NCBI RefSeq assembly: GCF_058153355.1
Contig: NZ_CM177019.1
Direction: 5' to 3' (one strand)
Length of the DNA: 64,000 nt
The notes under the pieces are model-generated. The model saw only the letters and a program-made list of their open reading frames with translations, was not told the DNA's origin and searched no databases. The position numbers and the translations under genes are program-made. Of the stretch, positions 8,014-30,865 are shown in pieces (within the stretch, counting starts at the first letter, position 1; the number at the start of each line of letters is the position of its first letter).

Positions 8014-8478
8014 TTATCGCAGAATAAAAGCGGTATACAGCACGTCGGTGACATCCTGTTTCGGTTGCCCGGCAACAAGCGGGGTGGAAAGTGTGGCTTT
8101 AATCTCAGCAATCAGGCTTTTCTTGCCTTCTTCTGTCGCCAGTACGGCAGCATCCTGACGCGAAAACAGTAACAGCAAGCGGCTACGGACTTCCGGCAAA
8201 TACTCACTTAGCCGCGAGCGGGTAGCTTCATCTTTTAGCCGCAGAGTTATGCCGATATAAAGCACGCGATCCGCATCACCCAAATTGACCGTAAAGGTAT
8301 CCAGCGCATAGAAGACCGGGGAGGGCACGACGCGTTGCTGCGCTTTGTCGTCAGCGGCAACCTGATGCGAATGCCAGTAGCTGTAACCTGCGCTGGCACA
8401 GGCCGCGAGGGTAATGAATACCAGAATCGGGATCCAAAGCGATCGCTTGCTTTTCTTGCTTATCGCGTAATCAGTCAT
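8014..8478 (-). CDS. fliL: Flagellar basal body-associated protein FliL
   Basis: 154-aa ORF, first gene of the fliLMNOPQR operon. Confidence 0.92.
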
Positions 8479-8582
8479 GTGTTGCGGTCTTCCTGTGTCG
8501 CTACTGCTTATCGGCTAATTATCCTGCGTCTTGAACGCAACAAAGCGGGGAAAAGACGCGGATTACGGTGCTACCTCTGACG

Positions 8583-9710: not shown

Positions 9711-10150
9711 TCGGGTTTCCTCATGGTGGCACGTTGGGCGAACTCATCCATCTTTTTCTGATCGAGACGGTTTTCTGCAAGCAGTGCCGCCGTGGATTGC
9801 CGTTCCTGCAGTGTCTGCCAGGCCTGCAAACGTTGTTTCTTTTCTCGCCAGCTGTTCAGGGCAATGTCAACTTTCTGCGTCCACTGATTAAGTTGCTGGC
9901 GATGCTGAGTAATGGCTTTTTCCAGCGTCTGGATAAACTGCTGATAGTTGATCCAGCGGTTACTGGTCATCCCGGCACTCATATCGCTGTTGAGGTTATT
10001 GCGATATTCATTCTGATAATCGATCAGCATTTTGAGTTGTTCCTCTGCCTGCTGGCATCCGCGACGCATTTCACCCAGCAGGCGCGCGGCATCTTCTACC
10101 TCTTTTTCTGCCAGATCTTTCAGGGTCGCCAGCGCGCCATGTTCTGCCAT
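9707..10150 (-). CDS. fliJ: Flagellar export chaperone-escort protein FliJ
   Basis: 147-aa coiled-coil ORF. Confidence 0.92.
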
Positions 10151-10171
10151 CTGCCGTTATCTCCTGCGTTT

Positions 10172-11541
10172 TCACACTGTCGGGAATATGCGCTCCAGCC
10201 CCTGGAGAGACTCTTCCCAGTCCGCGCGTTCAAAAATGCCTTGTTGCAAATAGCCCTCCAGCTGCGGCCACAGAGCGATGGCTTTATCGAGCATTGGATC
10301 GCTGCCTTTGGCATACGCGCCGACGCTAACCAGATCGCGGTTACGCTGAAAACTCGACAACAGCTGTTTGAAGGTGCGCACTCGCGCGTAATGTTGCTCG
10401 CTGATCAACGCCGTCATTGCACGGCTGATCGACGCTTCAATATCAATCGCCGGATAGTGTCCGGCTTCCGCCAGACGACGAGAAAGAACAATGTGACCGT
10501 CGAGGATCGCCCGTGCGGAGTCGGCAATCGGGTCCTGCTGGTCATCGCCTTCGGTGAGCACGGTATAAAACGCCGTAATTGAGCCGCCGCCGCTGATACC
10601 GTTACCGGCACGCTCGACCAGCGCCGGTAATTTGGCGAATACCGACGGTGGATAACCTTTGGTGGCAGGCGGTTCGCCAATCGCCAGCGCAATCTCACGC
10701 TGGGCCATCGCGTAGCGGGTGAGGGAGTCCATAATCAGCAACACATGCTGACCACGATCGCGAAAATCTTCGGCAATGCGCGTGGCATAGGCGGCACCTT
10801 GCATTCGCAGGAGCGGAGAAACATCCGCTGGAGCGGCAATCACCACGGAGCGTGCACGCCCTTCGGCACCGAGGATATTCTCAATAAAATCTTTTACTTC
10901 GCGCCCACGTTCACCAATCAAACCCACGACAATGACATCGGCGCGGGTGTAACGTGCCATCATCCCCAGCAGCACACTTTTACCGACACCAGAACCAGCA
11001 AATAGCCCCATACGCTGCCCGCGCCCAACGGTAAGCAGGGCATTGATTGGGCGCACGCCCGTGTCCAGCACATGTTCAATCGGTGTACGTTGCAAAGGGT
11101 TAAAAGGCGGGGTGATCAGCGCACCTGTTTCGGTCGTATCGGGGGAGGGAAGGCCATCAAGCGGTTTACCGCTGCCGTCCAGTACGCGACCTAACAACGC
11201 CGGACCGAGTGGCAACTGCTTGCCGCTTTGCAGCCCTTCAGCCGAAATGTGTTTGGCATAAACGCGCGCGCCGGGCAGGACACCTTCCACTTCTTCCAGC
11301 GGCATTAAAAACAGCCGTTGACCGTTAAAACCAACCACTTCGCTTTCTACTTCATGCGTTTCCGACCCGTTCTGGCGCTCAATCACACAGGTTGCGCCGA
11401 GCGGCAATTGTAATCCGGTAGCCTCCAGCACCAGCCCGGTGGCGCGGGTTAATCGCCCGTAGCGACGTACCGCAGGCAACTGCGCCATTTTGGCTTCGAA
11501 GTTATCCAGCGTGGTTAGCCAGCGAGTCAGGCGCGTGGTCA

Positions 11542-11542
<1 letters not shown>
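10172..11542 (-). CDS. fliI: Flagellum-specific ATPase FliI
   Basis: 456-aa ORF with Walker A GSGVGKS. Confidence 0.95.
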
Positions 11543-14867
<3,325 letters not shown>

Positions 14868-15081
14868 CGCGCACCTCGTGGCTGATTATGGACGGCGTTA
14901 TTGGCAAAGTGGAACAAGACTCACTCCCGGGTCAGCAAACTCGAAAAATTGACGCTCTCATTATTTGTGCTTTCGTTTTTTTCTATCCGCCAATAAACCC
15001 GTTTTTTTGTTGCTATTTAGCGCCTTTGTCTTATTGACTTACTGGTAGGCTTTGCTACCAGAAATTATCCGGGAGATGAAA

Positions 15082-15396
15082 ATGTCAGCGATACAGGGGA
15101 TTGAAGGGGTTATTAGCCAGTTACAGGCTACGGCGATGAGTGCGCGTGCGCAGGAATCACTGCCGCAACCGACCATTAGTTTTGCCGGGCAGCTGCACGC
15201 CGCGCTCGATCGCATAAGCGATACACAAACCGCCGCCCGCACGCAGGCAGAAAAATTCACCCTCGGCGAACCCGGCGTGGCGTTAAACGATGTGATGACC
15301 GATATGCAAAAAGCCTCAGTTTCTATGCAAATGGGGATTCAGGTGCGTAATAAGCTGGTGGCGGCGTATCAGGAAGTGATGAGCATGCAGGTGTAA
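15082..15396 (+). CDS. fliE: Flagellar hook-basal body protein FliE (104 aa from [10 protein letters not shown])
   Basis: ORF 15052..15396 trimmed to the canonical start; divergent from fliF. Confidence 0.9.
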
Positions 15397-15729
15397 GTTG
15401 TGTAACCTGTTGTTGATTACATCCGATCTCACCGCGTGGGGCATGGATGGGGCAAACACACTCAATTTCTGGTTTAAAATGGAAACCTGATTCTGAAAGT
15501 TTTCTGCCATCCACGATCTGTAAACGCGATAACATGTTTTGTCTTCGCTTTGCTCATAGGAAGAGTGAACTCTTTCGTTAGCCTGGGGTTCCTTCTGATC
15601 ATTATTGTTCCTGCCTTTATCTCTTGCCACGCCAGAGCCCCCTGGATACACATACACCAGGATGAAAACGGTGAGTTGTGTTCAAACTGTAGTACAATTC
15701 TCTCCAGTATGAACAGGAAAGAATATGCT

Positions 15730-16062
15730 ATGAACCCTTATATTTATCTTGGTGGCGCAATACTTGCAGAGGTCATTGGTACAACCTTAATGAAGTTTTC
15801 AGAGGGGGTTACACGGTTATGGCCCTCTGTTGGCACAATTATTTGTTATTGTGCCTCATTCTGGTTATTAGCTCAGACGCTGGCTTATATACCTACAGGG
15901 ATTGCTTATGCTATCTGGTCAGGAGTCGGTATCGTTCTGATTAGTTTGCTTTCCTGGGGATTTTTTGGCCAACGGCTGGACCTGCCAGCCATCATAGGCA
16001 TGATGTTGATTTGTGCCGGTGTGTTAGTCATTAACTTGTTGTCACGAAGTGCACCGCATTAA
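15730..16062 (+). CDS. emrE: Small multidrug resistance (SMR) efflux protein EmrE
   Basis: C-terminal 110 aa of ORF 15550..16062 (MNPYIYLGGAILAEVIGTTLMKFSEG...) match recalled EmrE, including the conserved Glu14. Confidence 0.9.
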   Translation: MNPYIYLGGAILAEVIGTTLMKFSEGVTRLWPSVGTIICYCASFWLLAQTLAYIPTGIAYAIWSGVGIVLISLLSWGFFGQRLDLPAIIGMMLICAGVLVINLLSRSAPH

Positions 16063-16230
16063 AAAATAATCATCCTTGAGATAACAAGAATCTGATTTGT
16101 GCATATTATGGCTAATGTTCGGGGCAACTTTATAATTATGATTGCATTTGCGCGATCATTGCGCCTTTTTGCATAATGAGATCAAGGCACATCAAATAAA
16201 ATAACGATAGGTCACAACAAAGAGGTTTTT

Positions 16231-16782
16231 ATGAAAAAACTTATCGTTTCAAGTGTATTGGCATTCATAACATTTTCTGCGCAGGCCGCAGCATTTCAGG
16301 TCACTAGTAATGAAATAAAAACAGGAGAGCAACTTACAACGTCTCATGTATTTTCTGGATTTGGGTGTGAGGGGGGGAATACATCGCCCTCATTAACCTG
16401 GTCTGGTGCTCCTGAAGGCACCAAAAGCTTTGCCGTAACTGTGTATGATCCAGATGCGCCTACAGGCAGTGGATGGTGGCACTGGACTGTTGCTAATATT
16501 CCAGCAACGGTAACATATTTGCCCGCTGATGCAGGAAGACGTGATGGTACAAAACTTCCGACTGGTGCTGTCCAAGGCCGAAATGATTTTGGCTATGCGG
16601 GATTTGGTGGAGCATGTCCTCCCAAAGGAGATAAACCCCATCATTACCAGTTTAAAATATGGGCTCTAAAAACTGATAAGATTCCTGTGGATTCTAATTC
16701 CAGCGGAGCGTTAGTTGGTTATATGCTTAATGCCAATAAAATTGCAACCGCTGAGATAACACCCGTTTATGAGGTAAAGTAG
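16231..16782 (+). CDS. ybcL: YbcL, periplasmic PEBP/RKIP-family (UPF0098) protein; DLP12-prophage-type cargo
   Basis: 183-aa ORF with signal peptide and PEBP motifs (DPDAP, GWWHW, GxHHY); follows emrE as in DLP12. Confidence 0.85.
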   Translation: MKKLIVSSVLAFITFSAQAAAFQVTSNEIKTGEQLTTSHVFSGFGCEGGNTSPSLTWSGAPEGTKSFAVTVYDPDAPTGSGWWHWTVANIPATVTYLPADAGRRDGTKLPTGAVQGRNDFGYAGFGGACPPKGDKPHHYQFKIWALKTDKIPVDSNSSGALVGYMLNANKIATAEITPVYEVK

Positions 16783-16791
16783 GATAAGAGT

Positions 16792-17589
16792 ATGCTGGCA
16801 AAAGATAGGACTAACCTAAAGATTGAAGAAATACGGATGCATAAACATCATGAGATTCACAGGGTTAAGCCTCTTATGCCAGCTTTATGTCGTATCCGTC
16901 AGGGAAAAAAAGTTATCAATTGGGAGACGCATAGTCTAACTGTTGATAATAATCAGATAATATTATTTCCCTGTGGATATGAATTTTATATTGCGAATTA
17001 CCCAGAAGCAGGTCTTTATCTTGCAGAAATGCTTTATTATCCCATTGATCTAATTGAAAAGTTCCAAAATCTTTATGCGATAACCGATCAAATTCGTAAC
17101 ACGACAGGTTTCTGCTTACCTCAGAATCCCGAGTTAATATATTGTTGGGAGCAACTAAAAACATCTGTTTCCCGAGGCTTCTCAACGCAAATTCAGGAAC
17201 ACTTAGCAATGGGCGTTCTACTTTCATTAGGAGCACATCATGTTAATTGTTTACTTTTATCAGATAGTAAACAATCATTAATAAGTCGTTGTTATAACCT
17301 AATGCTATCCGAACCTGGAACAAAATGGACAGCAAACAGGGTAGCGAGATATCTCTACATTTCTGTTTCCACATTGCATCGCCGTCTGGCAAGCGAGGGA
17401 GTAAGTTTTCAAAGTATATTGGACGACGTGAGGTTAAATAATGCGTTGTCTGCTATACAAACGACAGTAAAACCCATCAGCGAGATTGCCAGGGAAAATG
17501 GTTACAAGTGTCCTTCTCGTTTTACTGAAAGGTTCCATAATCGTTTTAAGATAACACCAAGAGAGCTAAGAAAAGCGTCCAGAGAGTAA
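16792..17589 (+). CDS. ybcM: AraC-family transcriptional regulator YbcM
   Basis: 265-aa ORF with C-terminal AraC-type HTH; order matches DLP12 ybcL-ybcM. Confidence 0.8.
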
Positions 17590-17598
17590 AAGTATTTT

Positions 17599-17718
17599 AT
17601 GAAGGAGCAACAGCATCGATTTTTATTTTGGAAAATCAATACGGCATACTCAACCTATTGGAGCCTGAACAATCCGGTGACTTCTGCGCTAATCGGGGAC
17701 GTTTATAAGCACATATAA
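17599..17718 (+). CDS. Candidate small ORF (39 aa, MKEQQHRFLFWKINTAYSTYWSLNNPVTSALIGDVYKHI), possibly ylcH-like
   Basis: Short ORF immediately after ybcM, where DLP12 carries ylcH; no convincing ribosome-binding site. Confidence 0.25.
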   Translation: MKEQQHRFLFWKINTAYSTYWSLNNPVTSALIGDVYKHI

Positions 17719-18042
17719 TTGATACTCTCTTCCTCCATCACAATTTCAGAAATGCACGTGTGATTTTTTGGCATCCGGCGTTTGGACTATGTGGAGTTCA
17801 AGAGTGGGAAAGTTACAAGAGGTTGAGGGGATAATTAAAGGGATGCTTATGACATTAGATATCCGGTTAGGTACGGATATCGTTGTTATTAAATCTAATT
17901 GATACGTTAATTGTTCACTGAGTATTATTAAAAATGGGGCGTTGAAACGCCCCAGAAAATAAAGGGTAATATATAACAGAAGGTTTATATAGTCAGAAGC
18001 AAGATAGCGCTTCTAAGGAAAGTGGCTTGAGGGGGCCACTTA

Positions 18043-18075
18043 TATGTTGGGGAGGCAAAGCCTCCCACAACATAT
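18043..18075 (-). terminator. Perfect inverted repeat (atgttggggaggc / gcctcccacaacat) just downstream of the porin gene
   Basis: 13-bp stem with 4-nt loop directly 3' of the porin stop at 18091. Confidence 0.6.
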
Positions 18076-18090
18076 CTTTGAGTAATCAGA

Positions 18091-19173
18091 TTAGAACTGG
18101 TAAACCAATCCTACAGCAACGATATCATCGGTAGCAACGCCAGATGCTTTCGTGAAATCGCTCTTATCAATCAGGTTGATTTTGTAATCAACAAAAGTGG
18201 ACATATTTTTGTTGAAGTAATAGGTTGCACCTACATCAATATATTCAACCAGGTCCTGATCACCCCACGCACCCAAGTCTTTTCCTTTAGATTGCAGGTA
18301 AGCAACGGACGGACGCAGACCGAAGTCGAACTGATATTGTGCAACTACTTCGAAGTTTTGTGCTTTGTTGGCAATATGGTTATTACCAAAAACAGTCATG
18401 TTCTGGGTTTCAGAATAGGTGGTAGCCAGATAGATGTTGTTCGCATCATATTTCAGACCAGCTGCCCATACTTCAGCATTTTGACCAGATGCATTCAGGC
18501 TGTTGTTACCGTAGATAACCTGATCATTAGTGCGGTCAGATTTAGCATAGGTTGCACCTACACCGAATCCTTCATACTCATAAGTAGTGGAGAAACCGAA
18601 ACCATCACCGTTAGCTTCAGTTACGTCAGTGCGGTCATTTTTACCCTGATACTGAGCAGCAAAGTTCAGACCATCAACCAGACCAAAGAAGTCGTTGTTA
18701 CGATAAGTTGCAACACCTGTGGTGCGACCAGTCATGAACACATCTGTTTGGGTCCAGGTATCGCCACCGAATTCTGGCAGAACGTCGGTCCATGCACCGA
18801 TATCGTATGCTACACCGTAGTTACGGCCATAATCGATGGAGCCGTAGTCACCGAATTTCAGGCCAGCGAAGGCAAGACGGGTTTTATCTTTGGAAGAACC
18901 TTGAGATTCAGCACGGTTGCCTTTGAATTCATATTCCCACTGACCGAAACCAGTCAGTTGATCGTTGATTTGGGTTTCGCCTTTGAAGCCCAGACGAACA
19001 TAAGTTGTGTCGCCATCATCTGCATCGTTAGAAGAGAAGTAGTGCTTAGCATTAACTTTTCCGTACAGATCCAGCTTGTTACTGTCTTTATTGTAAATCT
19101 CTGCTGCCTGAGCAGACATCGCCATCAGTACTGATGCAGCTACAGCAGAAATTGCCACTGTTAATTTTTTCAT
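18091..19173 (-). CDS. nmpC: Intact NmpC/OmpD-type general porin of the OmpC/OmpF family
   Basis: 360-aa ORF with signal peptide ([23 protein letters not shown]) and C-terminal ...VGLVYQF; closest to recalled NmpC; prophage-type cargo on the opposite strand to emrE-ybcM as in DLP12. Confidence 0.8.
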
Positions 19174-19703
19174 CGTGAGCCCTTTTATTTGAACTATTAT
19201 TTAAAAATGATGTCACTGCACCACAAATATTCATCTAATCAATGAGATTATTTCAAGATGTAAGTTTTAGTTTCTCATTTAAATTGTGAAGTAGATCCCT
19301 ATTTTTATCTGAACTGTTTCTATTGCACACAATGCATGACTATTTTGTGAACGAATATAAATTTGGTAGTCAAATTATATTAAAGGTTGTTATTTATGAT
19401 TGACTCATAATTTATTTATTTAATTTAAATAGCCTAAAAATAACCATGGAGATTATTTGCATGATATTTGTTTAGATTTGTTAATGTAGTTGAGGTGATT
19501 TTATTTAATACGCAATATAGCGCCGCTTGATATTAGTTCTATTTTTTTTTTGCGTAAGATAGATGAGACAAACTGAGACGCATAATGGTTTGCAAGGCTC
19601 TAATACTTTGATGTTGAGGATGTGATGGGGCATGTACGTGCATAGTACAATGATGTCCATGCCGGTGTGGATAATCTCCAGGCTTATCCGGTGCGCCGTA
19701 AAA

Positions 19704-20177
19704 CCCCGTCCTTCAGGGCGGGGATATAAGGCGCGGTTTTCCACCTGACCAGGTGTTTGCTGTTGTTCAATGTATTGGCGGATGACGGATATTGGCGCAC
19801 CTCCGCAGCTACTGGCAAAATAGCCGGGACTCCACAAAACGCCTTTGTAGTAATACCTGACTGCAATATCTGGTCGATCTCGTCGCAGTAATCTACCCGA
19901 TACGCCTTTGTGGCTGTTTACCAGACTGGATATCGCCAGTTTGGGAGGATAGTTAATTAACAAATGGACGTGATTCTGGTTCGCCATCCATTTCAACCAG
20001 TTCAGCTTCAAAATCAGCACATACATTTGAAAAGTAAGTGCGTAGTTTTTCTGTCGCGTCATGGTCAAAAATCTGACGTCGGTATCTGGTGACAAAGACC
20101 CGGTGAACATGCATCAGAAAAACACAGTGCCTTCCACGCCGGATATCGGTTTCTTTTTTCACAGACCAAAGTATCAT
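19704..20177 (-). pseudogene. tnpA: IS200/IS605 Y1 (HuH) transposase TnpA, split by a frameshift
   Basis: N-terminal part in ORF 19953..20177 (HCVFLMHVHRVFVTRYRRQIF...ELVEMDGEPE); HuH motif and catalytic-Tyr region in a different frame in ORF 19505..20110 (NHVHLLINYPP...SCGGAPISVIRQYIEQQQ); frame switch near 19965..19985. Confidence 0.7.
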
Positions 20178-20184
20178 TTGGCCT

Positions 20185-21393
20185 GTGAAACGACTACAAG
20201 CATTTAAATTCCAGTTAAGACCAGGTGGTCAACAGGAGCGTGAAATGAGGCGCTTCGCAGGCGCATGTCGTTTCGTTTTCAATCGTGCTCTGGCACGTCA
20301 GAATGAGAATCATGAGGCCGGTAATAAATACATCCCTTACGGGAAAATGGCTTCCTGGCTGGTTGAGTGGAAAAATGCCACTGAAACGCAATGGCTTAAA
20401 GATTCGCCCTCACAGCCATTGCAACAGTCACTGAAAGACCTTGAGCGGGCTTACAAAAACTTCTTCCAGAAGCGGGCTGCTTTTCCCCGATTCAAAAAGC
20501 GGGGACAGAATGATGCATTCCGCTACCCGCAGGGCGTTAAGCTCGATCAGGAAAACAGCCGTATTTTTCTGCCGAAACTGGGCTGGATGCGCTACCGGAA
20601 CAGCCGTCAGGTCACGGGTGTTGTGAAAAATGTCACGGTCAGCCAGTCCTGCGGTAAGTGGTACATCAGTATTCAGACAGAAAGTGAAGTATCCACTCCG
20701 GTTCATCCTTCAGCATCAATGGTCGGGCTGGATGCTGGCGTGGCTAAACTCGCCACGCTGTCAGATGGCACAGTCTTTGAGCCTGTAAACAGTTTTCAGA
20801 AAAACCAGAAGACGCTGGCGAGACTTCAGCGACAGTTAAGCCGCAAGGTCAAATTCAGCAACAACTGGCAGAAGCAGAAACGCAAAATACAGCGACTGCA
20901 TTCCCGTATCGCAAATATCCGCAGGGACTACCTTCACAAAGTCACAACGACCGTCAGCAAAAACCACGCAATGATAGTCATTGAGGATTTGAAGGTCAGC
21001 AACATGTCAAAGTCAGCAGCGGGTACGGTCAGCCAGCCGGGGCGCAATGTCCGGGCAAAATCAGGTTTAAACCGTTCGATACTGGATCAGGGCTGGTATG
21101 AAATGCGCCGCCAGCTTGAGCACAAGCAGCTCTGGAGTGGCGGTCAGGTGCTTGCTGTTCCGCCAGCGTACACAAGCCAGCGTTGCGCGTGCTGTGGTCA
21201 TACAGCGAAAGAAAACCGCCTGTCACAAAGTAAATTCAGATGCCAGGTATGTGGATATACAGCGAACGCCGATGTAAATGGCGCTCGTAACATTTTAGCG
21301 GCGGGGCACGCCGTTCTTGCCTGTGGAGAGATGGTGCAGTCAGGCCGCCCGTTGAAGCAGGAACCCACCGAAATGATTCAGGCGACAGCCTGA
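20185..21393 (+). CDS. tnpB: TnpB (IS605 OrfB), RuvC-like RNA-guided endonuclease; intact; GTG start
   Basis: 402-aa ORF; N-terminus resembles TnpB; C-terminal zinc finger CxxC...CxxC ([37 protein letters not shown]) and RuvC-like segments. Confidence 0.85.
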
Positions 21394-21432
21394 ACGTAGC
21401 AGGGATCCACGTCCTTCAGGGCGTGGAGGATG

Positions 21433-22105
21433 TCAACAAACAGGTTGAATTAACTTCGCGCCCTGGTTTTTGACATTACCCACCGCGCGCGACACAGGGT
21501 GCCAGGTGAACTGGTTTGCTGGAACACAGCCACTGGCAGAAATTTCAGAGGCTTCTTTACCGCTAATCTCTTGCCGCATCCATTCCCGCGCAGCTTCTGG
21601 CGACAGTACCAGCGGGCGGCGGTCATGAATATCTACCAGACCCTGGTCTGCTGCTGCAGTGACAATTAAAAATCCTTCGGCTTCGTCACCACGCTCAAAC
21701 GGTGTGCTACCTATCGCGGCTATAAAAACAGGTTGTCCATCAGCGCGATAGATAAAATAAGGCTGTTTTTTTGTCGCCTTCTTTTTTCCACTCAAACCAG
21801 CCATCGGCAAAACAGATTGCCCGACCATGTTGCCAGAGCGGTTTAAACATACGACTGGTTGCCGCAGTTTCTACGCGGGCGTTAATCAGCGGCGGTTTAT
21901 CCCACCATCCGGGAGCATATCCCCAGAAAACCGGATCCAGATGAAGGTGTTCATCACGTTCACTGAGCAGAAGAACTTTGGTTCCCGGCGCGACGTTGTA
22001 TCTGCCAATGGGTTCGGGATCGTAGGGAATATCGCGTTCAATATCTTCCGCGAGAAGCGCAAGGTAATCTTCACGCGTTTGGGATTGGGCAAAGCGTCCA
22101 CACAT
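21433..22105 (-). pseudogene. yedK: YedK (SRAP/HMCES-family abasic-site processing protein) disrupted by a +1 frameshift in a homopolymer run
   Basis: N-terminal 121-aa ORF (MCGRFAQSQ..., catalytic Cys2) and C-terminal 131-aa ORF overlap in different frames; 7-nt T run at 21766..21772 where the intact reading requires 6. Confidence 0.8.
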
Positions 22106-22213
22106 AGCAACCTCCTGAGATCATACTGAAAAGAATAGGAGAGGGGGCGGGTAAAATCTATGTGATGCAGAGGTAACGATGTTCCCGCTGTTGGCCACAG
22201 CGGGAATGAGGGA

Positions 22214-22447
22214 TTACTTCTGAATTAAATAACGAATGGTCGGCCCGTCTTGCTGAATATCCAGCACCGTATAGCCGTGATTACGCGCATCCAGTGGAAT
22301 ATTATTGATCGACTGCGGACAGTCGCTCACCACTTCCAGGATCTCACCTTTTTTTAATTGCGGCATCGCCTCAAGGGTTGCGACTGCCGGATAAGGGCAG
22401 GGTTCACCCACCATATCAAGGCGGTAATCAGGAACGATATTTTTCAT
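22214..22447 (-). CDS. yedF: TusA-like sulfurtransferase-family protein YedF
   Basis: 77-aa ORF with CPxP motif (EPCPYP). Confidence 0.88.
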   Translation of the reverse strand: MKNIVPDYRLDMVGEPCPYPAVATLEAMPQLKKGEILEVVSDCPQSINNIPLDARNHGYTVLDIQQDGPTIRYLIQK

Positions 22448-23649
22448 GCGATCTCCTTAGCAGTCTGCGGTGCCGCACGGCGGAAGAAGCGTTTTTCCCA
22501 GCCGATAATCAACATCAGCGCAGCAAACAGCAGCAAATATGTCACCAGCAGGCCACCCATCGGACCAAAGGTTTTCAGTAGGTTGATTTTGTCCCAGTCG
22601 GTGGCCAGCGCCGGAGCGAAATCATCCCAGTAATACGCCAGAATCGTTGAGCCGATCACGTTGCCCAGACCGACCCACCAGTAGTGCACCTGGCCTTCTA
22701 CCGCGCGGTACATCCAGCCGGTTTCGCAACCGCCTGCCAGCACGATGCCAAAACCAAACAGTAAACCACCGATTACCGCGTTCGGCCCCGCCCACATGAT
22801 TTTGGGTTCAACGCCTAACTGGACGTAACTGAAGATCCCGATGGCACTTACCGCCATACCGATAATGATTGCTTTCGCCATGTGGGTACGTCCGGTGATC
22901 CACATATCGCGGAACGCCGAAGTAAAGCAGATTTGCGCACGTTCAATCAGTAAACCAAAGCCGACGCCAAACAGCATTGCCAGCCCCAGTTTTGGTTGGT
23001 TCATCGCCGTCAGCAGCGCCCAGCCCAGCATGCCGAAAAAGACCAGCATCCCGAGACGAAAACGACGCCGCGCCTGATCCGGTTTTTGCGTCAGCGGTGA
23101 GGCGGCAGAAACTTTCTGCATTTTCACGGGAATACGGAAGATGGGCAGCAGGGTAAAGCGCGCGCCAAACCATGAACCAATGGCAGTGGCGATGGCAAAG
23201 AACCAGGCATGCAGCGAGAACTGAGGAATGCCGGTAAAGAACGCCGCCAGGTTACAGCCCATTGCCAGACGCGCGCCAAAACCGGCGATAATGCCGCCAA
23301 TGATGGCCTGCATAATGCGGATACGGCTGCGCGGCATGCGTAGTTTGACATTGTTGGCCCACAGCGCTGCAGCAAAGCAGCCGCCAAACATACCGAGGAT
23401 CATCATGCCGTCGATGCGGGTTAATGGCGATCCTTCCAGATGAATAATTTTAAAATAACCCCACTCTTCAGCATGGACGCCGAACAGCTGCAGGAGCTGA
23501 CCGCCCCAACGGGTAAATTCACCCGTGACAGCCCAAAAGGTGCCAGTGATGCCAAAGTAGTAAGTGGAGAGAATACCCGCCGCGATGACCGCAGGGATGG
23601 GTGCCCAGAATTTAATCAACCAGGCGTGTTTGAATTGCTGCCATGACAT
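22444..23649 (-). CDS. yedE: YedE, YeeE/YedE-family inner membrane transporter (selenium/thiosulfate-related)
   Basis: 401-aa polytopic membrane ORF overlapping yedF. Confidence 0.88.
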   Translation of the reverse strand: MSWQQFKHAWLIKFWAPIPAVIAAGILSTYYFGITGTFWAVTGEFTRWGGQLLQLFGVHAEEWGYFKIIHLEGSPLTRIDGMMILGMFGGCFAAALWANNVKLRMPRSRIRIMQAIIGGIIAGFGARLAMGCNLAAFFTGIPQFSLHAWFFAIATAIGSWFGARFTLLPIFRIPVKMQKVSAASPLTQKPDQARRRFRLGMLVFFGMLGWALLTAMNQPKLGLAMLFGVGFGLLIERAQICFTSAFRDMWITGRTHMAKAIIIGMAVSAIGIFSYVQLGVEPKIMWAGPNAVIGGLLFGFGIVLAGGCETGWMYRAVEGQVHYWWVGLGNVIGSTILAYYWDDFAPALATDWDKINLLKTFGPMGGLLVTYLLLFAALMLIIGWEKRFFRRAAPQTAKEIA

Positions 23650-23832
23650 GTATGTAGCCTCTGAACTCAGAAGGTTTGAAACAAGAGTCGCGAATCATAC
23701 ATCAAGCAAATTTATTTTCGGGGTAATAATTCACAAAAATAATAGTTAGATCAAATTTCTCTCTGAACCTGGAAAGGCTGGCGACATCAGGGCTTTAATG
23801 CCACAATCCTCTTTTCTTCTCATGCAGGACGA

Positions 23833-24249
23833 ATGATGAAAAAACTCGCAATTGCAGGCGCGCTCATGTTGCTGGCGGGCTGTGCCGAAGTCGAAAACTA
23901 TAACAATGTCGTTAAAACCCCCGCGCCGGACTGGCTGGCGGGCTACTGGCAGACCAAAGGGCCGCAAAGTGCGCTGGTCAGTCCGGAAGCGATAGGCAGC
24001 CTGATTGTCACTAAAGAGGGCGATACCCTGGATTGCCGTCAGTGGCAGCGGGTGATTGCTGTGCCGGGTAAGTTGACATTGATGTCTGATGATCTCACTA
24101 ACGTTACCGTAAAACGTGAGCTGTACGAGGTTGAGCGTGAAGGTAACACCATTGAGTACGATGGAATGACGATGGAGCGTGTGGATCGCCCGACGGCAGA
24201 GTGTGCCGCTGCGCTGGATAAAGCGCCGTTACCGACGCCATTGCCGTAA
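23833..24249 (+). CDS. yedD: Lipoprotein YedD
   Basis: 138-aa ORF with lipobox (LLAGC). Confidence 0.8.
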   Translation: MMKKLAIAGALMLLAGCAEVENYNNVVKTPAPDWLAGYWQTKGPQSALVSPEAIGSLIVTKEGDTLDCRQWQRVIAVPGKLTLMSDDLTNVTVKRELYEVEREGNTIEYDGMTMERVDRPTAECAAALDKAPLPTPLP

Positions 24250-24282
24250 TGAAATCTCCCCGGCTTGCCGCCGGGGATGAAT

Positions 24283-25770
24283 TTAAATCACCTCTTCGAT
24301 AACCCACACGCTGACGCTGCCGCCGTTGCAAAAGAAGGTCGCTTCGCCGTTTTCGTCGGTCACTACGCTCTCTTGCCGATTCCCCAGAAAATCACGCCAG
24401 GTTTTATTGCCGTAATTCTCTCCCAGATGAATGGTTTTTTCGCCATCATCTCCGTTCGACATGACCACCACGCAGCCGGGATATTCGTCGGTGCCACTGC
24501 GGCTAAAGGCAATGCAGTTCGGATGGTCGAAAAATAACGTCTGTACACCGTGGGCGAAACGCTGACGGGCGAGAATTAACTCATCAAGTTGTTCGATTAT
24601 TGGCATATCTATCGGATAGGTTTGCCCGTCACCGCCGACATCTTCGTAATGCGCGCCATAGAGGTCAGGATAGAACACCGAAGGAACGCCATTTTCCCGC
24701 AACAAAATTAAGGCATACGCCAGCGGTTTAAACCACGGTTCGACCGGCGCTTCGAGGGCTTGCAACGGTTGGGTGTCATGGTTGGCAACGAGGGTTACGG
24801 CGTGAAAAGGATCGGCTTCCACCAGCGTCCCAGTGAAAATCTGCGTCATGTCGTAGTCGCGTCCCATGCGCGATGCTTCATGGAATTTCATCTGCAGCGG
24901 CGCATCGAACAGCATGGTTTTGCCTTCCACCTGATCAATATACGTTTGCAGCTTATCAACTTCATGCGACCAGTACTCCGCCACAATAAACAGCGGCTTT
25001 GGCGCAACTTCTTGTACGTGTTCGACCCACTCTTTATAAAACCAGGCTGGAATATGTTTGACCGCATCAAGACGAAAACCGTCGCATTGCGTTTGTTCCA
25101 TCACCCAGCGCGCCCAGTATTTAATCTCTTCCGTCACGGCATGATTGCGAAAATCGATATTCTCGCCCATCAGATAATCGAAATTACCGAGTTCATCATC
25201 AACCTGATCGTTCCAGCCTTCGCCGGTGTAGTCGTTAACAATTTTAAAAATGCCATCTTCATTGGGGTTTTCGATATGGTCGATACCGCTAAAACATTTG
25301 AAATCCCAGATAAACTGCGAGTATTGCCCGGCACGGGCGGGGAAGGTGTAACGCGTCCAGCCTTCGCATTCAATGATTTCTTCATCAATTTGCGTACGGT
25401 CGTCAGCATTAACGCGCTGCACGCGAATAGCTTCTTTTTCATCCGCGCCCATTTTGTGATTGACTACCACGTCCAGCAGCACCGCAATGTCATTACGTTT
25501 CAGAGCGTCAATGGCGGCCAGCAGTTGTGCTTTATCGCCATATTTAGTAGGGATGCTGCCTTTCTGATCAAACTCGCCTAAATCAAATAAATCATAGGAG
25601 TCGTAGCCGACCGAATACCCGCCCGATGCGCCTTTATAGGCGGGCGGCAACCAGACCATATTGATACCAATATCATTAAAACCGTCGGCGCGCTCGGCCA
25701 GTTCAGGCCAGAGCTTACCGCCTTCCGGGTAATACCAGTGAAAACATTGTAACAGCGTGGGATTACGCAT
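24283..25770 (-). CDS. amyA: Cytoplasmic alpha-amylase AmyA
   Basis: 495-aa ORF with GH13 motifs ([12 protein letters not shown]). Confidence 0.92.
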
Positions 25771-25847
25771 TCTTCGACTCCATTCAAGGGGAACATTAGA
25801 AGCGTAGCCGTAATCGGATTATTCGCGAGCCATCGGCTCGTTAAGAT

Positions 25848-26213
25848 TCAAAAGAGGTTATCCTGCGGAGCCAGCACAAAGCCGCCCTGATCGCCATAGG
25901 CACTTAACACCGATTTTTGTACCGATGACTGACCGACCAGTTTCGCCAGTTCATCCATCCGAATCTGCAATAACTGCTTTACCCTGCTTTCGTTGTCGAG
26001 AATCAGGCGCAGCATCGGGCGGAGTTGCTCCTGCATCGTGGTGGACGGATCAATCTCTTCAGTCAGATGTGCAATCTCCTGCACCGCATTCACATACGCC
26101 ATTTCGCTGGCGATGAGTTCGTCCCATTGTTCTTCTGTTGCCAGGCGTAACATGAGCTGGCTTTTTTCGACGAGTTGTTGCCAGGCGAAATACAAATGCG
26201 GTGCATGGTTCAT
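25848..26213 (-). CDS. fliT: Flagellar chaperone / anti-FlhDC factor FliT
   Basis: 121-aa ORF downstream of fliS. Confidence 0.9.
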
Positions 26214-26623
26214 CAGACTGGGTCCTGAATCAAAGAAGGGGAGAGTAAAGACTCTTTCCAGGCATCGGCAATATTGCGCATTAATGCTTCCACTTCTTCG
26301 ACTGCGGAGACATCGTTGCGTAAATTGGCTTGCAGCAAGCGCCTGACCATATAGCTATAAAGAGCAATCAAGTTTTGGGTTAGTTCGTCTTTGCTCTCTT
26401 CATCAAGACTCACCCGCAGCCCGTTCTCAATGATGTTGATCGCTTTTGACAAAGAGACGCCTTTGCCTTGCTGATTGTTGTCCTGCATAAACAGGCGCGC
26501 TCTAACCAGTGCGCTCAGCACTCCATCAAATAGCATGGTGACCAGCTGCTGCTGGCTGGCGCTCATTACGGCGCTTTCGACGCCAATTTGTGCATAGGCC
26601 TGGGTGCCTTTTGCCGCGTACAT
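26213..26623 (-). CDS. fliS: Flagellin-specific chaperone FliS
   Basis: 136-aa ORF. Confidence 0.92.
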
Positions 26624-26638
26624 AGTTTCTCCTGAAGA

Positions 26639-28054
26639 TTATTTCGAGTTGCTATTTGAGGTGTCGAACTGCTGTGTCAGATAGCTACTGGTGGAGTTAA
26701 GCGAGTTCATTAACACATCTAATTGGGTGAACTGGGCTTTATAGCGCGTCATTAAGGTATCGATACGCTCACTGGCTGCGTTGTACTGGTCGGTCAAATT
26801 ATTCAGCGTTTTGCTGACGCCATCTTTTGCGGCCTGGATTATCCCGGTGGAAGAGAGCCAACTGGTCAGGTTGCTACTAATGCCGGTAGTTACCCCTGTA
26901 CTTTTACCGTCACCTATAAACATTTCACCGATGCCAGCGGCATCTTTTTTTAGTGCCGTTTGCAGTTTGTCGGTCGCGATTTCCAGCTTGCCGGTACTGG
27001 CATCGCTGGTAATGCCAATCTGTGCCAGCGTTTTATAGTTTGAACTGCTGTGAGTATTGGCGAGCAAGGTTTTAAGCTGAGTCTGGATGGTACGCAGTGT
27101 GGAGTCACCAAGTAATGCTCCATTACTGGAGTCCTGACTTTCTGCTCCGGCATCGACAGCGGTGTATTTGGTTAAGCTACTGAATGTATCCTGCAATGTG
27201 TTATAGGCATCCACCCATGCTTTGACTGCATTTTCAGCTTTGGATGTGTCTTTACTGATGGTCAGTGTCTGATTACCGGTGGTGACGTCATTCAGGTTGA
27301 GTGTGATATCTTCCAGCGCGTCGCTGATAGTGTTACTGCTGTTTTCAATCTCAACGTTATTGACTGTTAGTTTGGCGTTTTGCGCGGTGACGCTTTCAAT
27401 CATGCCATTGCTGCTATCACCCGACGTTCCGTTGTAACCCATAAAACTTTCCAGGGCGCTGTCGCCGCTGACGCTAAGTTTCATAGCGTTATCGTTGCCC
27501 GTATCGTTAGCGGTGATGGACAGACGATATTCGCCGTTTCCCACATTGATGATACTGGCGCTGACACCAGCTTTGGCGTTGTTAATGGCATCGCGAATGC
27601 CGGAAAGTGACGAGTTAGCCGCGCTGATATCAATCGTGACCGGATCTTTACCGCCGCCTTGCTGGATGGTCAGTACGCTATCGCTGGTAGCGATGGCAGC
27701 TTTACTGTCTTTTTGACTAATTTTTGTGGTCAGCGTTTGTGCCTGCGCCAGTTGGCTAACGCTAATGGTGAATTTCCCGGCAATCGCGCTGCCCGTGGTG
27801 GTGGCGCTGAAAGCCGATGAACTGCTGGTGGTTGAAGTGGCGGTAAATAAATCGGCTTTATTCAGTGCTGTGTTGGCTGTCTGGAAACTCTCTAGTGCAC
27901 TTTTCAGCGTCCCGTAGGCGCTCAGTTTCGCGGTGTAAGAGCTTTGCTGTTTTGATATCGGCGTCAGGGTAGATTTTTCTGCCGCCTCCAGACTGTCAAG
28001 GATGCTGCTTAAGTCCAGCCCCGACCCAACCCCAAGCGTTGAAATACTAGCCAT
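26639..28054 (-). CDS. fliD: Flagellar filament cap protein FliD
   Basis: 471-aa ORF (MASISTLGVGSGLDLSSILDSL...). Confidence 0.92.
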   Translation of the reverse strand: MASISTLGVGSGLDLSSILDSLEAAEKSTLTPISKQQSSYTAKLSAYGTLKSALESFQTANTALNKADLFTATSTTSSSSAFSATTTGSAIAGKFTISVSQLAQAQTLTTKISQKDSKAAIATSDSVLTIQQGGGKDPVTIDISAANSSLSGIRDAINNAKAGVSASIINVGNGEYRLSITANDTGNDNAMKLSVSGDSALESFMGYNGTSGDSSNGMIESVTAQNAKLTVNNVEIENSSNTISDALEDITLNLNDVTTGNQTLTISKDTSKAENAVKAWVDAYNTLQDTFSSLTKYTAVDAGAESQDSSNGALLGDSTLRTIQTQLKTLLANTHSSSNYKTLAQIGITSDASTGKLEIATDKLQTALKKDAAGIGEMFIGDGKSTGVTTGISSNLTSWLSSTGIIQAAKDGVSKTLNNLTDQYNAASERIDTLMTRYKAQFTQLDVLMNSLNSTSSYLTQQFDTSNSNSK

Positions 28055-28096
28055 ATAGATTCCTTAATCATGCGACGTATAGAACGAATATCGAGG

Positions 28097-28123
28097 TTAT
28101 CGGCGTAAGCGGGGCAAAGTTTA
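28097..28123 (-). promoter_or_regulatory. sigma28 (FliA) class 3 promoter for fliDST
   Basis: Minus-strand TAAACTTT-N11-GCCGATAA, a near-perfect match to the sigma28 consensus TAAAGTTT-N11-GCCGATAA. Confidence 0.75.
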
Positions 28124-28196
28124 CGATTTATTTTTTGGTTTAATGACACGAACAGCAACGAGGAAGGGGAGTATTTCGACCGCTAGAAAAAAATTC

Positions 28197-28223
28197 TAAA
28201 GGTTGTGAGTGACCAGACGATAA
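28197..28223 (+). promoter_or_regulatory. sigma28 (FliA) class 3 promoter for fliC
   Basis: TAAAGGTT-N11-GACGATAA about 75 bp upstream of the fliC ATG. Confidence 0.75.
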
Positions 28224-28299
28224 CAGGGTTGACGGCGACGAAGCCGAAGGGTGGAAGCCCAATACCTAAACCGTAGACTTGAAAACAGGAAAAGAAATC

Positions 28300-29781
28300 A
28301 TGGCACAAGTCATTAATACCAACAGCCTCTCGCTGATCACTCAGAACAACATCAACAAAAACCAGTCTGCGCTGTCGACGTCTATCGAGCGTCTGTCTTC
28401 CGGTCTGCGTATCAACAGCGCAAAGGATGATGCAGCGGGCCAGGCCATTGCTAACCGTTTCACCTCTAACATTAAAGGCCTGACTCAGGCTGCACGTAAC
28501 GCCAACGACGGTATTTCTCTGGCGCAGACTACTGAAGGCGCGCTGTCTGAGATTAACAACAACTTGCAGCGTGTGCGTGAGTTGACTGTACAGGCGACGA
28601 CCGGGACTAACTCTGAATCTGACCTGTCTTCTATCCAGGATGAAATCAAATCCCGTTTAAGCGAAATTGACCGTGTTTCTGGTCAGACTCAGTTTAACGG
28701 CGTGAACGTACTGGCTAAGAATGACACCCTGTCTATTCAGGTAGGTGCAAATGACGGTCAGACTATCAATATTGACCTGCAGCAGATCGATTCTCATACA
28801 CTGGGTCTGGATGGTTTCAGCGTTAAAAACAATGATGCAGTGAAAACCAGTGCTGCGGTGAATACTCTTGGGGGTGGGGCAAGTTCTGTTGCTGTCGACT
28901 TCGCAACAACCAATTTGACTGCTATCGCTGGTCTCGGTGGCGGTGCTATCAGCGAAATTGCTAAAGACGATAATGGTGATTACTACGCGCATGTTACAGG
29001 GACTACGGGTAGTACTGCTGATGGTTACTATGCTGTCGATATTGACAAGGCTAACGGTAAGGTCGCTCTGAAAGATGGTAACGTAGATACACCGACAGGT
29101 ACGCCAACGACGACAAGCACATATGACTTCACAGACGCTGGTCAAACCGTTTCCTTTGGCACTGATGCTGCAACAGCAGGTATCAGCACTGGCGCTTCTC
29201 TCGTCAAACTTCAGGATGAGAAAGGCAATGATACTGCTACTTATGCAATCAAAGCACAAGATGGCAGCCTGTATGCCGCCAACGTTGATGAGACTACCGG
29301 TAAAGTCACTGTCAAAACCGCCAGCTATACCGATGCTGACGGCAAAGCAGTGACCGATGCCGCTGTAAAACTGGGTGGCGACAATGGCAAAACCGAAATT
29401 GTTGTCGATGCTGCGTCAGGTAAAACTTACGATGCTGGTGCACTGCAAAACGCTGATCTCTCCAGTGCAACCAACACGGTAACCGCAATCCCGAACGGTA
29501 AAACCACGTCTCCTCTGGCTGCCCTTGACGACGCAATCAGCCAGATCGACAAATTCCGCTCCTCCCTCGGTGCGGTACAAAACCGTTTGGATTCCGCCGT
29601 CACCAACCTGAACAACACCACTACCAACCTGTCTGAAGCGCAGTCCCGTATTCAGGACGCCGACTATGCGACCGAAGTGTCCAACATGTCGAAAGCGCAG
29701 ATTATCCAGCAGGCCGGTAACTCCGTGCTGGCAAAAGCCAACCAGGTACCGCAGCAGGTTCTGTCTCTGCTGCAGGGTTAA
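28300..29781 (+). CDS. fliC: Flagellin FliC (493 aa from MAQVINTNSL); conserved termini with a variable central H-antigen domain
   Basis: ORF trimmed to the canonical start; N- and C-terminal regions match recalled flagellin, central region diverges from K-12. Confidence 0.93.
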   Translation: MAQVINTNSLSLITQNNINKNQSALSTSIERLSSGLRINSAKDDAAGQAIANRFTSNIKGLTQAARNANDGISLAQTTEGALSEINNNLQRVRELTVQATTGTNSESDLSSIQDEIKSRLSEIDRVSGQTQFNGVNVLAKNDTLSIQVGANDGQTINIDLQQIDSHTLGLDGFSVKNNDAVKTSAAVNTLGGGASSVAVDFATTNLTAIAGLGGGAISEIAKDDNGDYYAHVTGTTGSTADGYYAVDIDKANGKVALKDGNVDTPTGTPTTTSTYDFTDAGQTVSFGTDAATAGISTGASLVKLQDEKGNDTATYAIKAQDGSLYAANVDETTGKVTVKTASYTDADGKAVTDAAVKLGGDNGKTEIVVDAASGKTYDAGALQNADLSSATNTVTAIPNGKTTSPLAALDDAISQIDKFRSSLGAVQNRLDSAVTNLNNTTTNLSEAQSRIQDADYATEVSNMSKAQIIQQAGNSVLAKANQVPQQVLSLLQG

Positions 29782-29824
29782 TCGTCCTAACCTGATTAAC
29801 TGAGACTGACGGCAACGCCAAATT

Positions 29825-29927
<103 letters not shown>

Positions 29928-29955
29928 TGAATGGTAATTTGTCAGCAACGTGCTT

Positions 29956-29980
29956 CCCCGCCACCGGCGGGGTTTTTTCT
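29956..29980 (+). terminator. Rho-independent terminator after fliC
   Basis: ccccgccaccggcgggg hairpin followed by a T run. Confidence 0.8.
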
Positions 29981-30067
29981 GTCCGCAATTTACCGGTAAC
30001 CCCCAAATAACCCCTCATTTCACCCACTAATCGTCCGATTAAAAACCCTGCAGAAACGGATAATCAT

Positions 30068-30075
30068 GCCGATAA
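30068..30075 (+). promoter_or_regulatory. sigma28-type -10 element (GCCGATAA) upstream of fliA
   Basis: Exact GCCGATAA about 25 bp upstream of the fliA GTG; the matching -35 is weak. Confidence 0.4.
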
Positions 30076-30100
30076 CTCATATAACGCAGGGCTGTTTATC

Positions 30101-30820
30101 GTGAATTCACTCTATACCGCTGAAGGTGTAATGGATAAACACTCGCTGTGGCAGCGTTATGTCCCGCTGGTGCGTCACGAAGCATTGCGCCTGCAGGTTC
30201 GACTGCCCGCGAGCGTGGAACTTGACGATCTGCTACAGGCGGGCGGCATTGGGTTACTTAATGCCGTCGAACGCTATGACGCCCTACAAGGAACGGCATT
30301 TACAACTTACGCAGTGCAGCGTATCCGTGGCGCTATGCTGGATGAACTTCGCAGCCGTGACTGGGTGCCGCGCAGCGTGCGACGCAACGCGCGTGAAGTG
30401 GCACAGGCAATAGGGCAACTGGAGCAGGAACTTGGCCGCAACGCCACGGAAACTGAGGTTGCGGAACGTTTAGGGATCGATATTGCCGATTATCGCCAAA
30501 TGTTGCTCGACACCAATAACAGCCAGCTCTTCTCCTACGATGAGTGGCGCGAAGAGCACGGCGATAGCATCGAACTGGTTACTGATGATCATCAGCGAGA
30601 AAACCCGCTACAACAACTGCTGGACAGTAATCTGCGCCAGCGGGTGATGGAAGCCATCGAAACGTTGCCTGAGCGCGAAAAACTGGTATTAACCCTCTAT
30701 TACCAGGAAGAGCTGAATCTCAAAGAGATTGGCGCGGTGCTGGAGGTCGGGGAATCGCGGGTCAGTCAGTTACACAGCCAGGCCATTAAACGGTTACGCA
30801 CTAAACTGGGTAAGTTATAA
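30101..30820 (+). CDS. fliA: Flagellar sigma factor sigma28 FliA (GTG start)
   Basis: 239-aa ORF with sigma-70 family regions 2 and 4. Confidence 0.95.
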   Translation: MNSLYTAEGVMDKHSLWQRYVPLVRHEALRLQVRLPASVELDDLLQAGGIGLLNAVERYDALQGTAFTTYAVQRIRGAMLDELRSRDWVPRSVRRNAREVAQAIGQLEQELGRNATETEVAERLGIDIADYRQMLLDTNNSQLFSYDEWREEHGDSIELVTDDHQRENPLQQLLDSNLRQRVMEAIETLPEREKLVLTLYYQEELNLKEIGAVLEVGESRVSQLHSQAIKRLRTKLGKL

Positions 30821-30865
30821 CGTCAGTAAATGCCGCACTTTAATTTTGACTACCAGGAGTTCTTA

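What the first reader, a model, noticed from the sequence alone, without database searches (positions are those of the whole stretch)
19953..19990. Frameshift splits the Y1 transposase TnpA
The conserved N-terminal strand (HCVFLMHVH...YRRQIF...ELVEMDGEPE) is read in one frame and terminates at 19953. The HuH motif (HVHLL) and the catalytic-Tyr region (SCGGAPISVIRQYIEQQQ) continue in another frame. The junction maps to the sequence gaaccagaatcacgtccat (minus strand), consistent with a single-base indel. The element is therefore probably immobile by its own transposase.
Basis: seen in the sequence. Interest (0 to 1): 0.4.

Follow-up and report, generated by a model that had tools for sequence, protein, structure and literature searches.

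The report
One-base frameshift in IS609 transposase gene
The transposase gene of a common E. coli jumping element (IS609) is broken here by one extra base. This is an ordinary kind of decay for this element, but only this assembly shows this particular break, so a sequencing error cannot be excluded.

Summary
Window 19688..21436 is an IS609 copy (IS200/IS605 family) inserted at the stop codon of yedK. Its tnpA (minus strand, 20177->19745) carries one extra base: TT at 19974-19975 where all relatives have T. The extra base lies in the Asp68 codon, just before the HUH motif (H69-V70-H71). The N-terminal 67 residues therefore end at a stop at 19953-19955, and HUH and Tyr135 lie in another frame.

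The extra base was found nowhere else:
- in none of 9,758 copies in 4,990 complete E. coli genomes;
- in no metagenome contig (a search with the normal sequence found at least 120);
- not in a sister assembly that differs from the window by only 2 SNPs in 21.5 kb.

So it is either a very recent private mutation (about 0.6) or an assembly error (about 0.35). Reads are needed to decide.

tnpB (402 aa), both end hairpins and the TTAT target are intact, so the element is at most non-autonomous. Broken tnpA beside an intact tnpB is usual for IS609, as in K-12. The finding is ordinary and of low interest.

The parts
19684..19687 (+). TTAT target tetranucleotide immediately 5' of the left end
   Evidence: The same TTAT flanks the left end at three independent insertion sites: this window, the O157 TetR site and the K-12 ydcL/ydcO site. 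The empty site in strain Es_ST80 reads TTAT|CAAACAGG.
19688..21436 (+). IS609 copy (IS200/IS605 family), 1749 bp including the extra base. The top strand is the tnpB strand.
   Evidence: Boundaries come from the filled versus empty site comparison and from where homology to the K-12 and O157 copies stops. Identity to the O157 copy annotated IS609 is 97.5 %.
19704..19723 (+). Left-end subterminal hairpin (CCCCGTCC TTCA GGGCGGGG)
   Evidence: ssDNA fold gives an 8-bp stem and a 4-nt loop. The hairpin sequence is identical in the O157 copy.
19745..20177 (-). tnpA pseudogene (canonical extent, 432 nt plus 1 inserted base)
   Evidence: Pfam Y1_Tnp matches in two frames.
19974..19975 (.). The frameshift: TT where every relative has a single T (minus strand GAAT versus GAT, Asp68 codon). 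It disrupts a GATC site.
   Evidence: The allele is absent from 9,758 E. coli copies and from metagenome contigs (control).
19953..20177 (-). N-terminal fragment ORF: 67 native residues, 7 aberrant residues, then a stop
19505..20110 (-). Second-frame ORF. It carries HUH (19964-19972) and Tyr135 (19772-19774) and reads on past the lost stop codon into the flank.
19745..19747 (-). Former stop codon, now CAG (TAG in the O157 and goat-strain copies)
20185..21393 (+). tnpB (InsQ-type RNA-guided nuclease), 402 aa, open
   Evidence: Pfam HTH_OrfB_IS605, OrfB_IS605 and Cas12f1-like_TNB match. The exact protein is already in public collections. It aligns with ISDra2 TnpB structures over residues 3-376, E=2e-55.
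21406..21427 (+). Right-end subterminal hairpin (TCCACGTCC TTCA GGGCGTGGA)
21433..21436 (+). Right end TCAA. Its complement supplies the new yedK stop (QPV* becomes QPVC*).
21266..21452 (+). Inferred omega-RNA region (3' end of tnpB to the right end) plus about 16 nt of flank (21437-21452, CAAACAGGTTGAATTA) as guide
   Evidence: This part is inference from the known TnpB/omega-RNA layout. The only local support is sub-threshold Rfam hits (HgcC, sot0042, RAGATH-18) at 21266-21449.
21433..22105 (-). Neighbouring yedK (SRAP peptidase), itself frameshifted by T6->T7 at 21766-21772
   Evidence: The same allele is present in two independent assemblies.

Best explanation
A resident chromosomal IS609 copy sits at the yedK stop codon, a site occupied in at least 667 of 5,426 complete E. 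coli genomes. In this strain its tnpA gene has acquired a genuine, very recent one-base insertion in the Asp68 codon.

Translation from the normal start gives 67 native residues, 7 wrong ones and a stop. This product has neither the HUH metal-binding motif nor the nucleophilic Tyr135, so it cannot cut or rejoin the single-stranded ends.

The gene was probably already drifting. This lineage had put Arg at a conserved hydrophobic beta-strand position (L26R) and His at L89, and had lost the stop codon.

The rest of the element is intact: tnpB, both subterminal hairpins, the TTAT target and the TCAA end. The copy is therefore now a non-autonomous, TnpB-only element. It can move only if another IS609 copy supplies TnpA in trans.

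Shown: the insertion, its position, the lost stop codon, the intact tnpB and ends, and the rarity of the allele. Inferred: loss of TnpA activity, prior relaxation of constraint, possible trans-mobilisation, and that the base is real.
For: - Single gap column against intact and related copies.
- The fragment lacks HUH and Tyr, judged by alignment with IS608 TnpA 2A6M and other solved Y1 transposases.
- The assembly is otherwise clean. All 43 other genes compared with a relative in window 1-40,000 are open, fliC being only partly comparable. There is no coding frameshift in 40,000-64,000.
- The window is identical, with no differences, to two contigs assembled independently from public sequencing runs, over 19.7 kb and 8.4 kb. 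It differs from the sister assembly by 2 SNPs and this one indel in 21.5 kb.
- The insertion turns T into TT, so it is not a long homopolymer.
- The neighbouring yedK frameshift, which looked equally suspicious, is confirmed in two independent assemblies.
- Decay of tnpA is the norm for IS609. Of 38 full-length copies in metagenome contigs, 27 carry a premature stop or a frameshift, 7 have lost only the stop codon, and 4 are canonical. By contrast 41 of 51 full-length tnpB copies are open.
- The K-12 copy has L96* plus stop loss beside an intact insQ and never transposed in mutation-accumulation lines (PMC5009759).
- The ends are intact.
Against: - The allele is seen in this one assembly only. 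It is absent from 9,758 places in 4,990 genomes and from all metagenome contigs, while the wild-type 27-mer hits at least 120.
- The frameshifted products are not among about 15 billion proteins.
- The near-identical sister assembly GCA_043012465.1 has the undisturbed 223-aa ORF.
- The site lies inside a repeated element. Contigs from sequencing runs of the same clone break about 25 bp inside both IS ends.
- The site is a GATC (Dam) motif. Both repeats and methylation motifs are contexts where assembly or polishing errors occur (the second point is from my own knowledge).
- No contig from those runs covers the IS interior, so there is no second read-based view of the base.
Confidence: 0.6

Rival explanations
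1. Assembly or consensus artefact. The strain really has GATC, giving a continuous 223-aa tnpA ORF as in its sister. The extra T was introduced during assembly or polishing of a multi-copy IS.
For: - The allele is private to one assembly and absent from the 99.986 % identical sister, from 9,758 E. coli copies and from metagenomes.
- IS609 appears to be repeated in this clone, because contigs from its sequencing runs stop at both IS ends.
- The site is a Dam GATC motif (sequence). That such motifs are error-prone in nanopore consensus is my own knowledge.
Against: - The window shows no other discrepancy with read-based contigs over 28.1 kb.
- All long homopolymers agree with the sister assembly, including the T10 at 19542 and the T7 in yedK, since the alignment has no other gap.
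- The other single-base indels relative to the goat strain, outside the divergent fliD-fliC intergenic stretch, lie outside or at the edge of coding sequence apart from yedK. This is the pattern of selection-filtered real differences, not random error.
- The change is not a homopolymer-length error.
Confidence: 0.35
2. The split is functional: a programmed +1 frameshift, or a two-piece TnpA that still yields active transposase.
For: None beyond the fact that both halves remain open reading frames.
Against: - No other IS609 copy has this arrangement, in none of 9,758 places. It is therefore not a conserved feature of the element.
- There is no slippery run or in-frame stop at the shift site. 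The 0 frame runs on for 7 more codons.
- Solved Y1 transposases are single chains that span both halves.
- Programmed frameshifting is not known in the IS200/IS605 family (own knowledge).
Confidence: 0.02

Closest known systems
IS609 of E. coli K-12 (insQ/ydcM with tnpA pseudogene, ydcL-ydcO locus)
   Same: - Same element and same divergent tnpA/tnpB layout, with TTAT at the left flank and TCAA at the right end.
- tnpB is open at 402 aa and tnpA is dead.
- It shares the stop-codon loss.
- It was not seen to transpose in mutation-accumulation lines (PMC5009759).
   Different: - It occupies a different chromosomal site.
- The K-12 lesion is a nonsense codon (L96*) that is widely inherited, making up 17 of the 38 full-length copies sampled. 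The lesion here is a private 1-base insertion at codon 68.
Intact IS609 of E. coli O157:H7 (TnpA WP_000604943.1, 143 aa; L003)
   Same: 97.5 % DNA identity over the whole element, with the same hairpins and ends.
   Different: - The O157 tnpA is a continuous 143-aa ORF with a TAG stop.
- The window copy has the extra base, no stop codon, and the changes L26R, K51N, L89H and A131V.
IS608 (Helicobacter pylori) and ISDra2 (Deinococcus radiodurans), the mechanistic models of the family
   Same: - The Y1 HUH transposase aligns with solved TnpA structures 2A6M and 2XM3, E=1e-18 to 1e-15, with HUH and Tyr conserved.
- TnpB aligns with ISDra2 TnpB 8BF8/8EXA, E=2e-55.
- It has subterminal hairpins, inserts 3' of a tetranucleotide and makes no target duplication.
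- The right end is TCAA, as in IS608 (IS608 detail from my own knowledge).
   Different: - tnpA and tnpB are divergent here, with starts 8 bp apart. In IS608 they are tandem (own knowledge).
- The target is TTAT rather than TTAC or TTGAT (own knowledge for the latter two).
- The TnpA here is disabled.

Membership tests
IS200/IS605 family, IS609 | Encodes a Y1 (HUH, single-Tyr) transposase of the Pfam Y1_Tnp type | tested here: met
   PF01797 matches in two frames, E=2e-10 and 1e-23. The repaired protein aligns with IS608 and ISDra2 TnpA structures, with HUH and Tyr conserved.
IS200/IS605 family, IS609 | The transposase gene is a single open frame (autonomous element) | tested here: not met
   A +1 insertion at 19974/19975 and a lost stop codon. 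The copy is a defective member, not an autonomous one.
IS200/IS605 family, IS609 | Accessory tnpB (OrfB_IS605, RuvC-like with zinc ribbon) | tested here: met
   A 402-aa ORF with PF12323, PF01385 and PF07282. It aligns over residues 3-376 with ISDra2 TnpB structures.
IS200/IS605 family, IS609 | Subterminal imperfect hairpins at both ends instead of terminal inverted repeats | tested here: met
   Hairpins at 19704-19723 and 21406-21427 share the motif GTCCTTCAGGGCG on the same strand.
IS200/IS605 family, IS609 | Insertion 3' of a fixed short target sequence, without target-site duplication | tested here: met
   TTAT is present at three independent sites. The empty site TTAT|CAAACAGG against the filled site shows no duplication.
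IS200/IS605 family, IS609 | Near-identity to the named reference element | tested here: inconclusive
   97.5 % identity over 1,761 bp to a copy that RefSeq annotates as 'IS609 family transposase'. The ISfinder reference entry itself was not available to compare.
Programmed-frameshift transposase genes (IS1/IS3 type) | Frameshift site with a slippery motif, conserved among copies of the element | tested here: not met
   None of 9,758 copies carries the two-frame arrangement, and there is no slippery run at the site.

The most novel reading that the evidence does not exclude
The frameshift may be one more instance of a systematic pattern in which E. coli keeps IS609 tnpB and its guide RNA open while tnpA decays. 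In the metagenome sample about 71 % of full-length tnpA copies were overtly broken against about 20 % of tnpB copies, although tnpB is 2.8 times longer. That would point to selection on the RNA-guided nuclease independent of transposition. Here the guide would be fixed on the 3' end of yedK.
Probability: 0.1. Interest if true: 0.4.

Novelty: already known. Interest (0 to 1): 0.08.

Why it matters
It matters little. For annotation, this tnpA should be marked as a pseudogene, or the base re-checked, and the IS609 copy treated as non-autonomous.

The case does show how to separate a real pseudogene from a possible artefact without reads. The yedK frameshift 1.8 kb away is confirmed by independent assemblies of the same clone. 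The tnpA frameshift is not.

It also adds one more example to the known pattern that TnpB genes outlast their TnpA partners.

Tried and rejected
- **Species-representative genome scan.** The exact frameshift 28-mer gave 0 hits, but the wild-type control also gave 0. This negative result says nothing and is not used.
- **Exact protein look-ups.** Six possible products of the frameshifted gene and the sister's 223-aa ORF are not on record. This is weak evidence, because pseudogenes get no protein record and contigs from sequencing runs break at the IS.
- **Read-based view of the IS interior.**
  - Contigs found through FliC and FliK are identical to the window but stop about 25 bp inside each IS end.
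  - Contigs found through a truncated TnpB (P0030) come from other samples.
  - Genomes with the identical TnpB all have the wild-type base.
- **Rfam.** No family reaches its gathering score at the tnpB 3' end. There are only sub-threshold HgcC, sot0042 and RAGATH-18 hits.
- **Shigella-like genome rich in pseudogenes.** Rejected. All flagellar and other genes compared are open except tnpA and yedK.
- **Noisy long-read assembly.** Rejected as a general description, because there are no differences from read-based contigs over 28 kb.
- **pN/pS for tnpA and tnpB between copies.** About 0.2 for both, from a handful of changes. This is too few to show relaxed constraint.
- **Programmed frameshift.** Rejected (and the sequence itself).
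- **Second IS609 copy in the window.** None found.

Full report
**What is there**

The window is E. coli chromosome, the fli / yedK / amyA / che region. It is 98-99 % identical to complete genomes.

Between a porin gene (18091..19173) and yedK lies a 1,749-bp copy of IS609, an IS200/IS605-family element. The boundaries are exact. A strain with an empty site reads ...GGCTTAT|CAAACAGGTTG... on the window's plus strand (L007). The window has the element between TTAT (19684-19687) and CAAACAGG (21437 onward).

Three independent insertion sites all show TTAT 5' of the left end and TCAA as the last four bases of the right end. These sites are this window, the K-12 ydcL/ydcO site and the O157 TetR-gene site.

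Each end has an 8-9 bp hairpin with a TTCA loop on the same strand, at 19704-19723 and 21406-21427.

The two genes are divergent:
- tnpA runs on the minus strand from 20177.
- tnpB runs on the plus strand, 20185..21393. It is 402 aa with all three Pfam domains. It aligns with the ISDra2 TnpB structures over residues 3-376 at E=2e-55.

The insertion sits on the yedK stop codon and changes its end from QPV* to QPVC*. The yedK/right-end junction is present in at least 667 of 5,426 complete E. coli genomes, so this is an old, inherited insertion.

**The observation**

It is correct.
- The ORF 19953..20177 (-) gives MILWSV...ELVEMDGEP, then ESRPFVN and a stop.
- The ORF 19505..20110 (-), in another frame, carries NHVHLL...SCGGAPISVIRQYIEQQQ.
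- Both halves hit Pfam Y1_Tnp: profile positions 1-50 at E=2e-10, and 26-121 at E=1e-23.
- Alignment with the intact 143-aa TnpA gene of an O157:H7 IS609 and two other copies shows one gap column. The window has CCAGAATCAC where the others have CCAGATCAC. On the plus strand this is TT at 19974-19975.
- The extra base is in the Asp68 codon, directly before H69-V70-H71.
- Tyr135 aligns with the Tyr of the YIENQQ helix of IS608 TnpA.

- The normal stop codon is gone: CAG at 19745-19747, where the O157 and goat-strain copies have TAG. A repaired gene would therefore still carry an 80-residue tail that reads into the flank.
- This lineage's TnpA also has Arg at position 26 and His at position 89. 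Solved relatives have Ile/Phe and Ala/Phe at these positions. That these changes are damaging is inference.

**Is the base real?**

Population evidence says the allele is private.
- None of 9,758 places in 4,990 complete E. coli genomes matches the 81-bp query without the gap.
- There are no metagenome contigs with the 28-mer, while the wild-type 27-mer finds at least 120.
- None of the predicted products is among about 15 billion proteins.
- The species-representative scan is uninformative, because its wild-type control also failed.

The most telling comparison is with assemblies of the same clone.
- GCA_043012465.1 (L009/L020) matches window 18299..39781 with 2 SNPs and 1 gap, and the gap is this base. 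It has a continuous 223-aa tnpA ORF.
- Two contigs assembled from public sequencing runs (SRR28786219 and SRR31441161) match the window perfectly over 1..19710 and 21409..29849. Both end about 25 bp inside the IS, so they do not cover the site.
- Those breaks imply at least one more IS609 copy in the clone (inference).

Points for a real mutation:
- The window has no other discrepancy with read-based contigs over 28 kb.
- All homopolymers agree with the sister assembly, since the alignment has no other gap.
- Of 45 genes compared in 1-40,000, only tnpA and yedK are frameshifted (fliC could be compared only over its conserved 5' part). There is no coding frameshift in 40,000-64,000.
- The change is T to TT rather than a long-run length error.

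Points for an artefact:
- The allele is unique to this assembly.
- It lies inside a repeat.
- It lies in a GATC motif.

I put the odds at about 0.6 real and 0.35 artefact. Only reads can settle it.

**A useful contrast**

yedK is also split, by T6->T7 at 21766-21772. That allele too is absent from 5,373 complete genomes. However, it is present in both independent assemblies of the clone. It is therefore real.

**How it works now (inference from the family's established mechanism)**

IS200/IS605 TnpA needs the HUH motif and the Tyr to cut and rejoin the single-stranded hairpin ends. A 74-residue product with neither is inactive. A re-initiated C-terminal piece would lack the first beta-strand and helix.

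The cis sites and tnpB are intact. The copy is therefore a non-autonomous element that another IS609 copy could mobilise.

By the known layout, the TnpB guide would be the 16 nt after the right end (CAAACAGGTTGAATTA), and its target would be the empty site next to TTAT. The local support for an omega-RNA is only sub-threshold.

**How ordinary this is**

- In 80 metagenome contigs carrying the wild-type 27-mer, 38 had a full-length tnpA. Of these, 27 had a premature stop or frameshift, 7 had only the stop-codon loss, and 4 were canonical.
- Of 51 full-length tnpB genes in the same contigs, 41 were open.
- These copies share inherited alleles (L96* alone accounts for 17), so independent events are far fewer than copies.
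- The K-12 copy has L96* and the stop loss beside an intact insQ. It produced no new insertion in mutation-accumulation lines (PMC5009759).
- At the yedK site itself, different lineages carry different lesions: an internal stop in STEC2018-553 and an IS1 insertion in 2017.17.01CC. In a goat isolate the gene is annotated as intact.

**Verdict**

The feature is a defective copy of a known element with a known kind of lesion, so its novelty is nil. The one open point, mutation versus consensus error, is technical.

Noticed in passing
window 21433-22105 (-), T-run 21766-21772: yedK (SOS-response-associated peptidase, SRAP) is split into 121-aa and 131-aa ORFs by T6->T7. The allele is absent from 5,373 complete E. 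coli genomes. It is present in GCA_043012465.1 and in a contig assembled from run SRR31441161, so it is a real, clone-specific pseudogene.
   Followed up: yes
window 19745-19747 (-): The tnpA stop codon is CAG, not TAG. The ORF runs on through the left end into the flank, to 19505. K-12-type and STEC copies share this change. NCBI annotates 204- and 224-aa 'transposases' of this kind. Whether the tailed protein is active is unknown.
   Followed up: partly
L023-L102 (metagenome contigs): 27 of 38 full-length IS609 tnpA copies are overtly broken, against 10 of 51 full-length tnpB copies, although tnpB is 2.8 times longer. Inherited alleles inflate the counts, so selection on tnpB is suggested but not shown.
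   Followed up: partly
window 21266-21449 (+): Sub-threshold Rfam hits to HgcC, sot0042 and RAGATH-18 lie at the 3' end of tnpB and the right end, where an omega-RNA would be expected. None reaches its gathering score.
   Followed up: no
window 17911-19132: A 1.2-kb segment carrying an OmpC-like porin gene (18091..19173) is present here and in strain 2017.17.01CC. It is absent from the goat strain, which otherwise aligns continuously with the window.
   Followed up: no
window 15730-17589: emrE, ybcL and ybcM lie between fliE and the porin/IS609. In K-12 these genes are in the DLP12 prophage region (own knowledge).
   Followed up: no
window 46494-46500: A 6-bp in-frame insertion (a repeat of ATCGGT) in araF relative to the goat strain.
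   Followed up: no
window 19710 and 21409: Contigs assembled from sequencing runs of the same clone stop about 25 bp inside both IS609 ends. This implies at least one more IS609 copy elsewhere in that genome. There is none in this window.
   Followed up: partly
window 31056 and 34373: These are the only two substitutions against the sister assembly in 21.5 kb. One of them changes FliZ residue 64, Glu here and Val in the sister.
   Followed up: no
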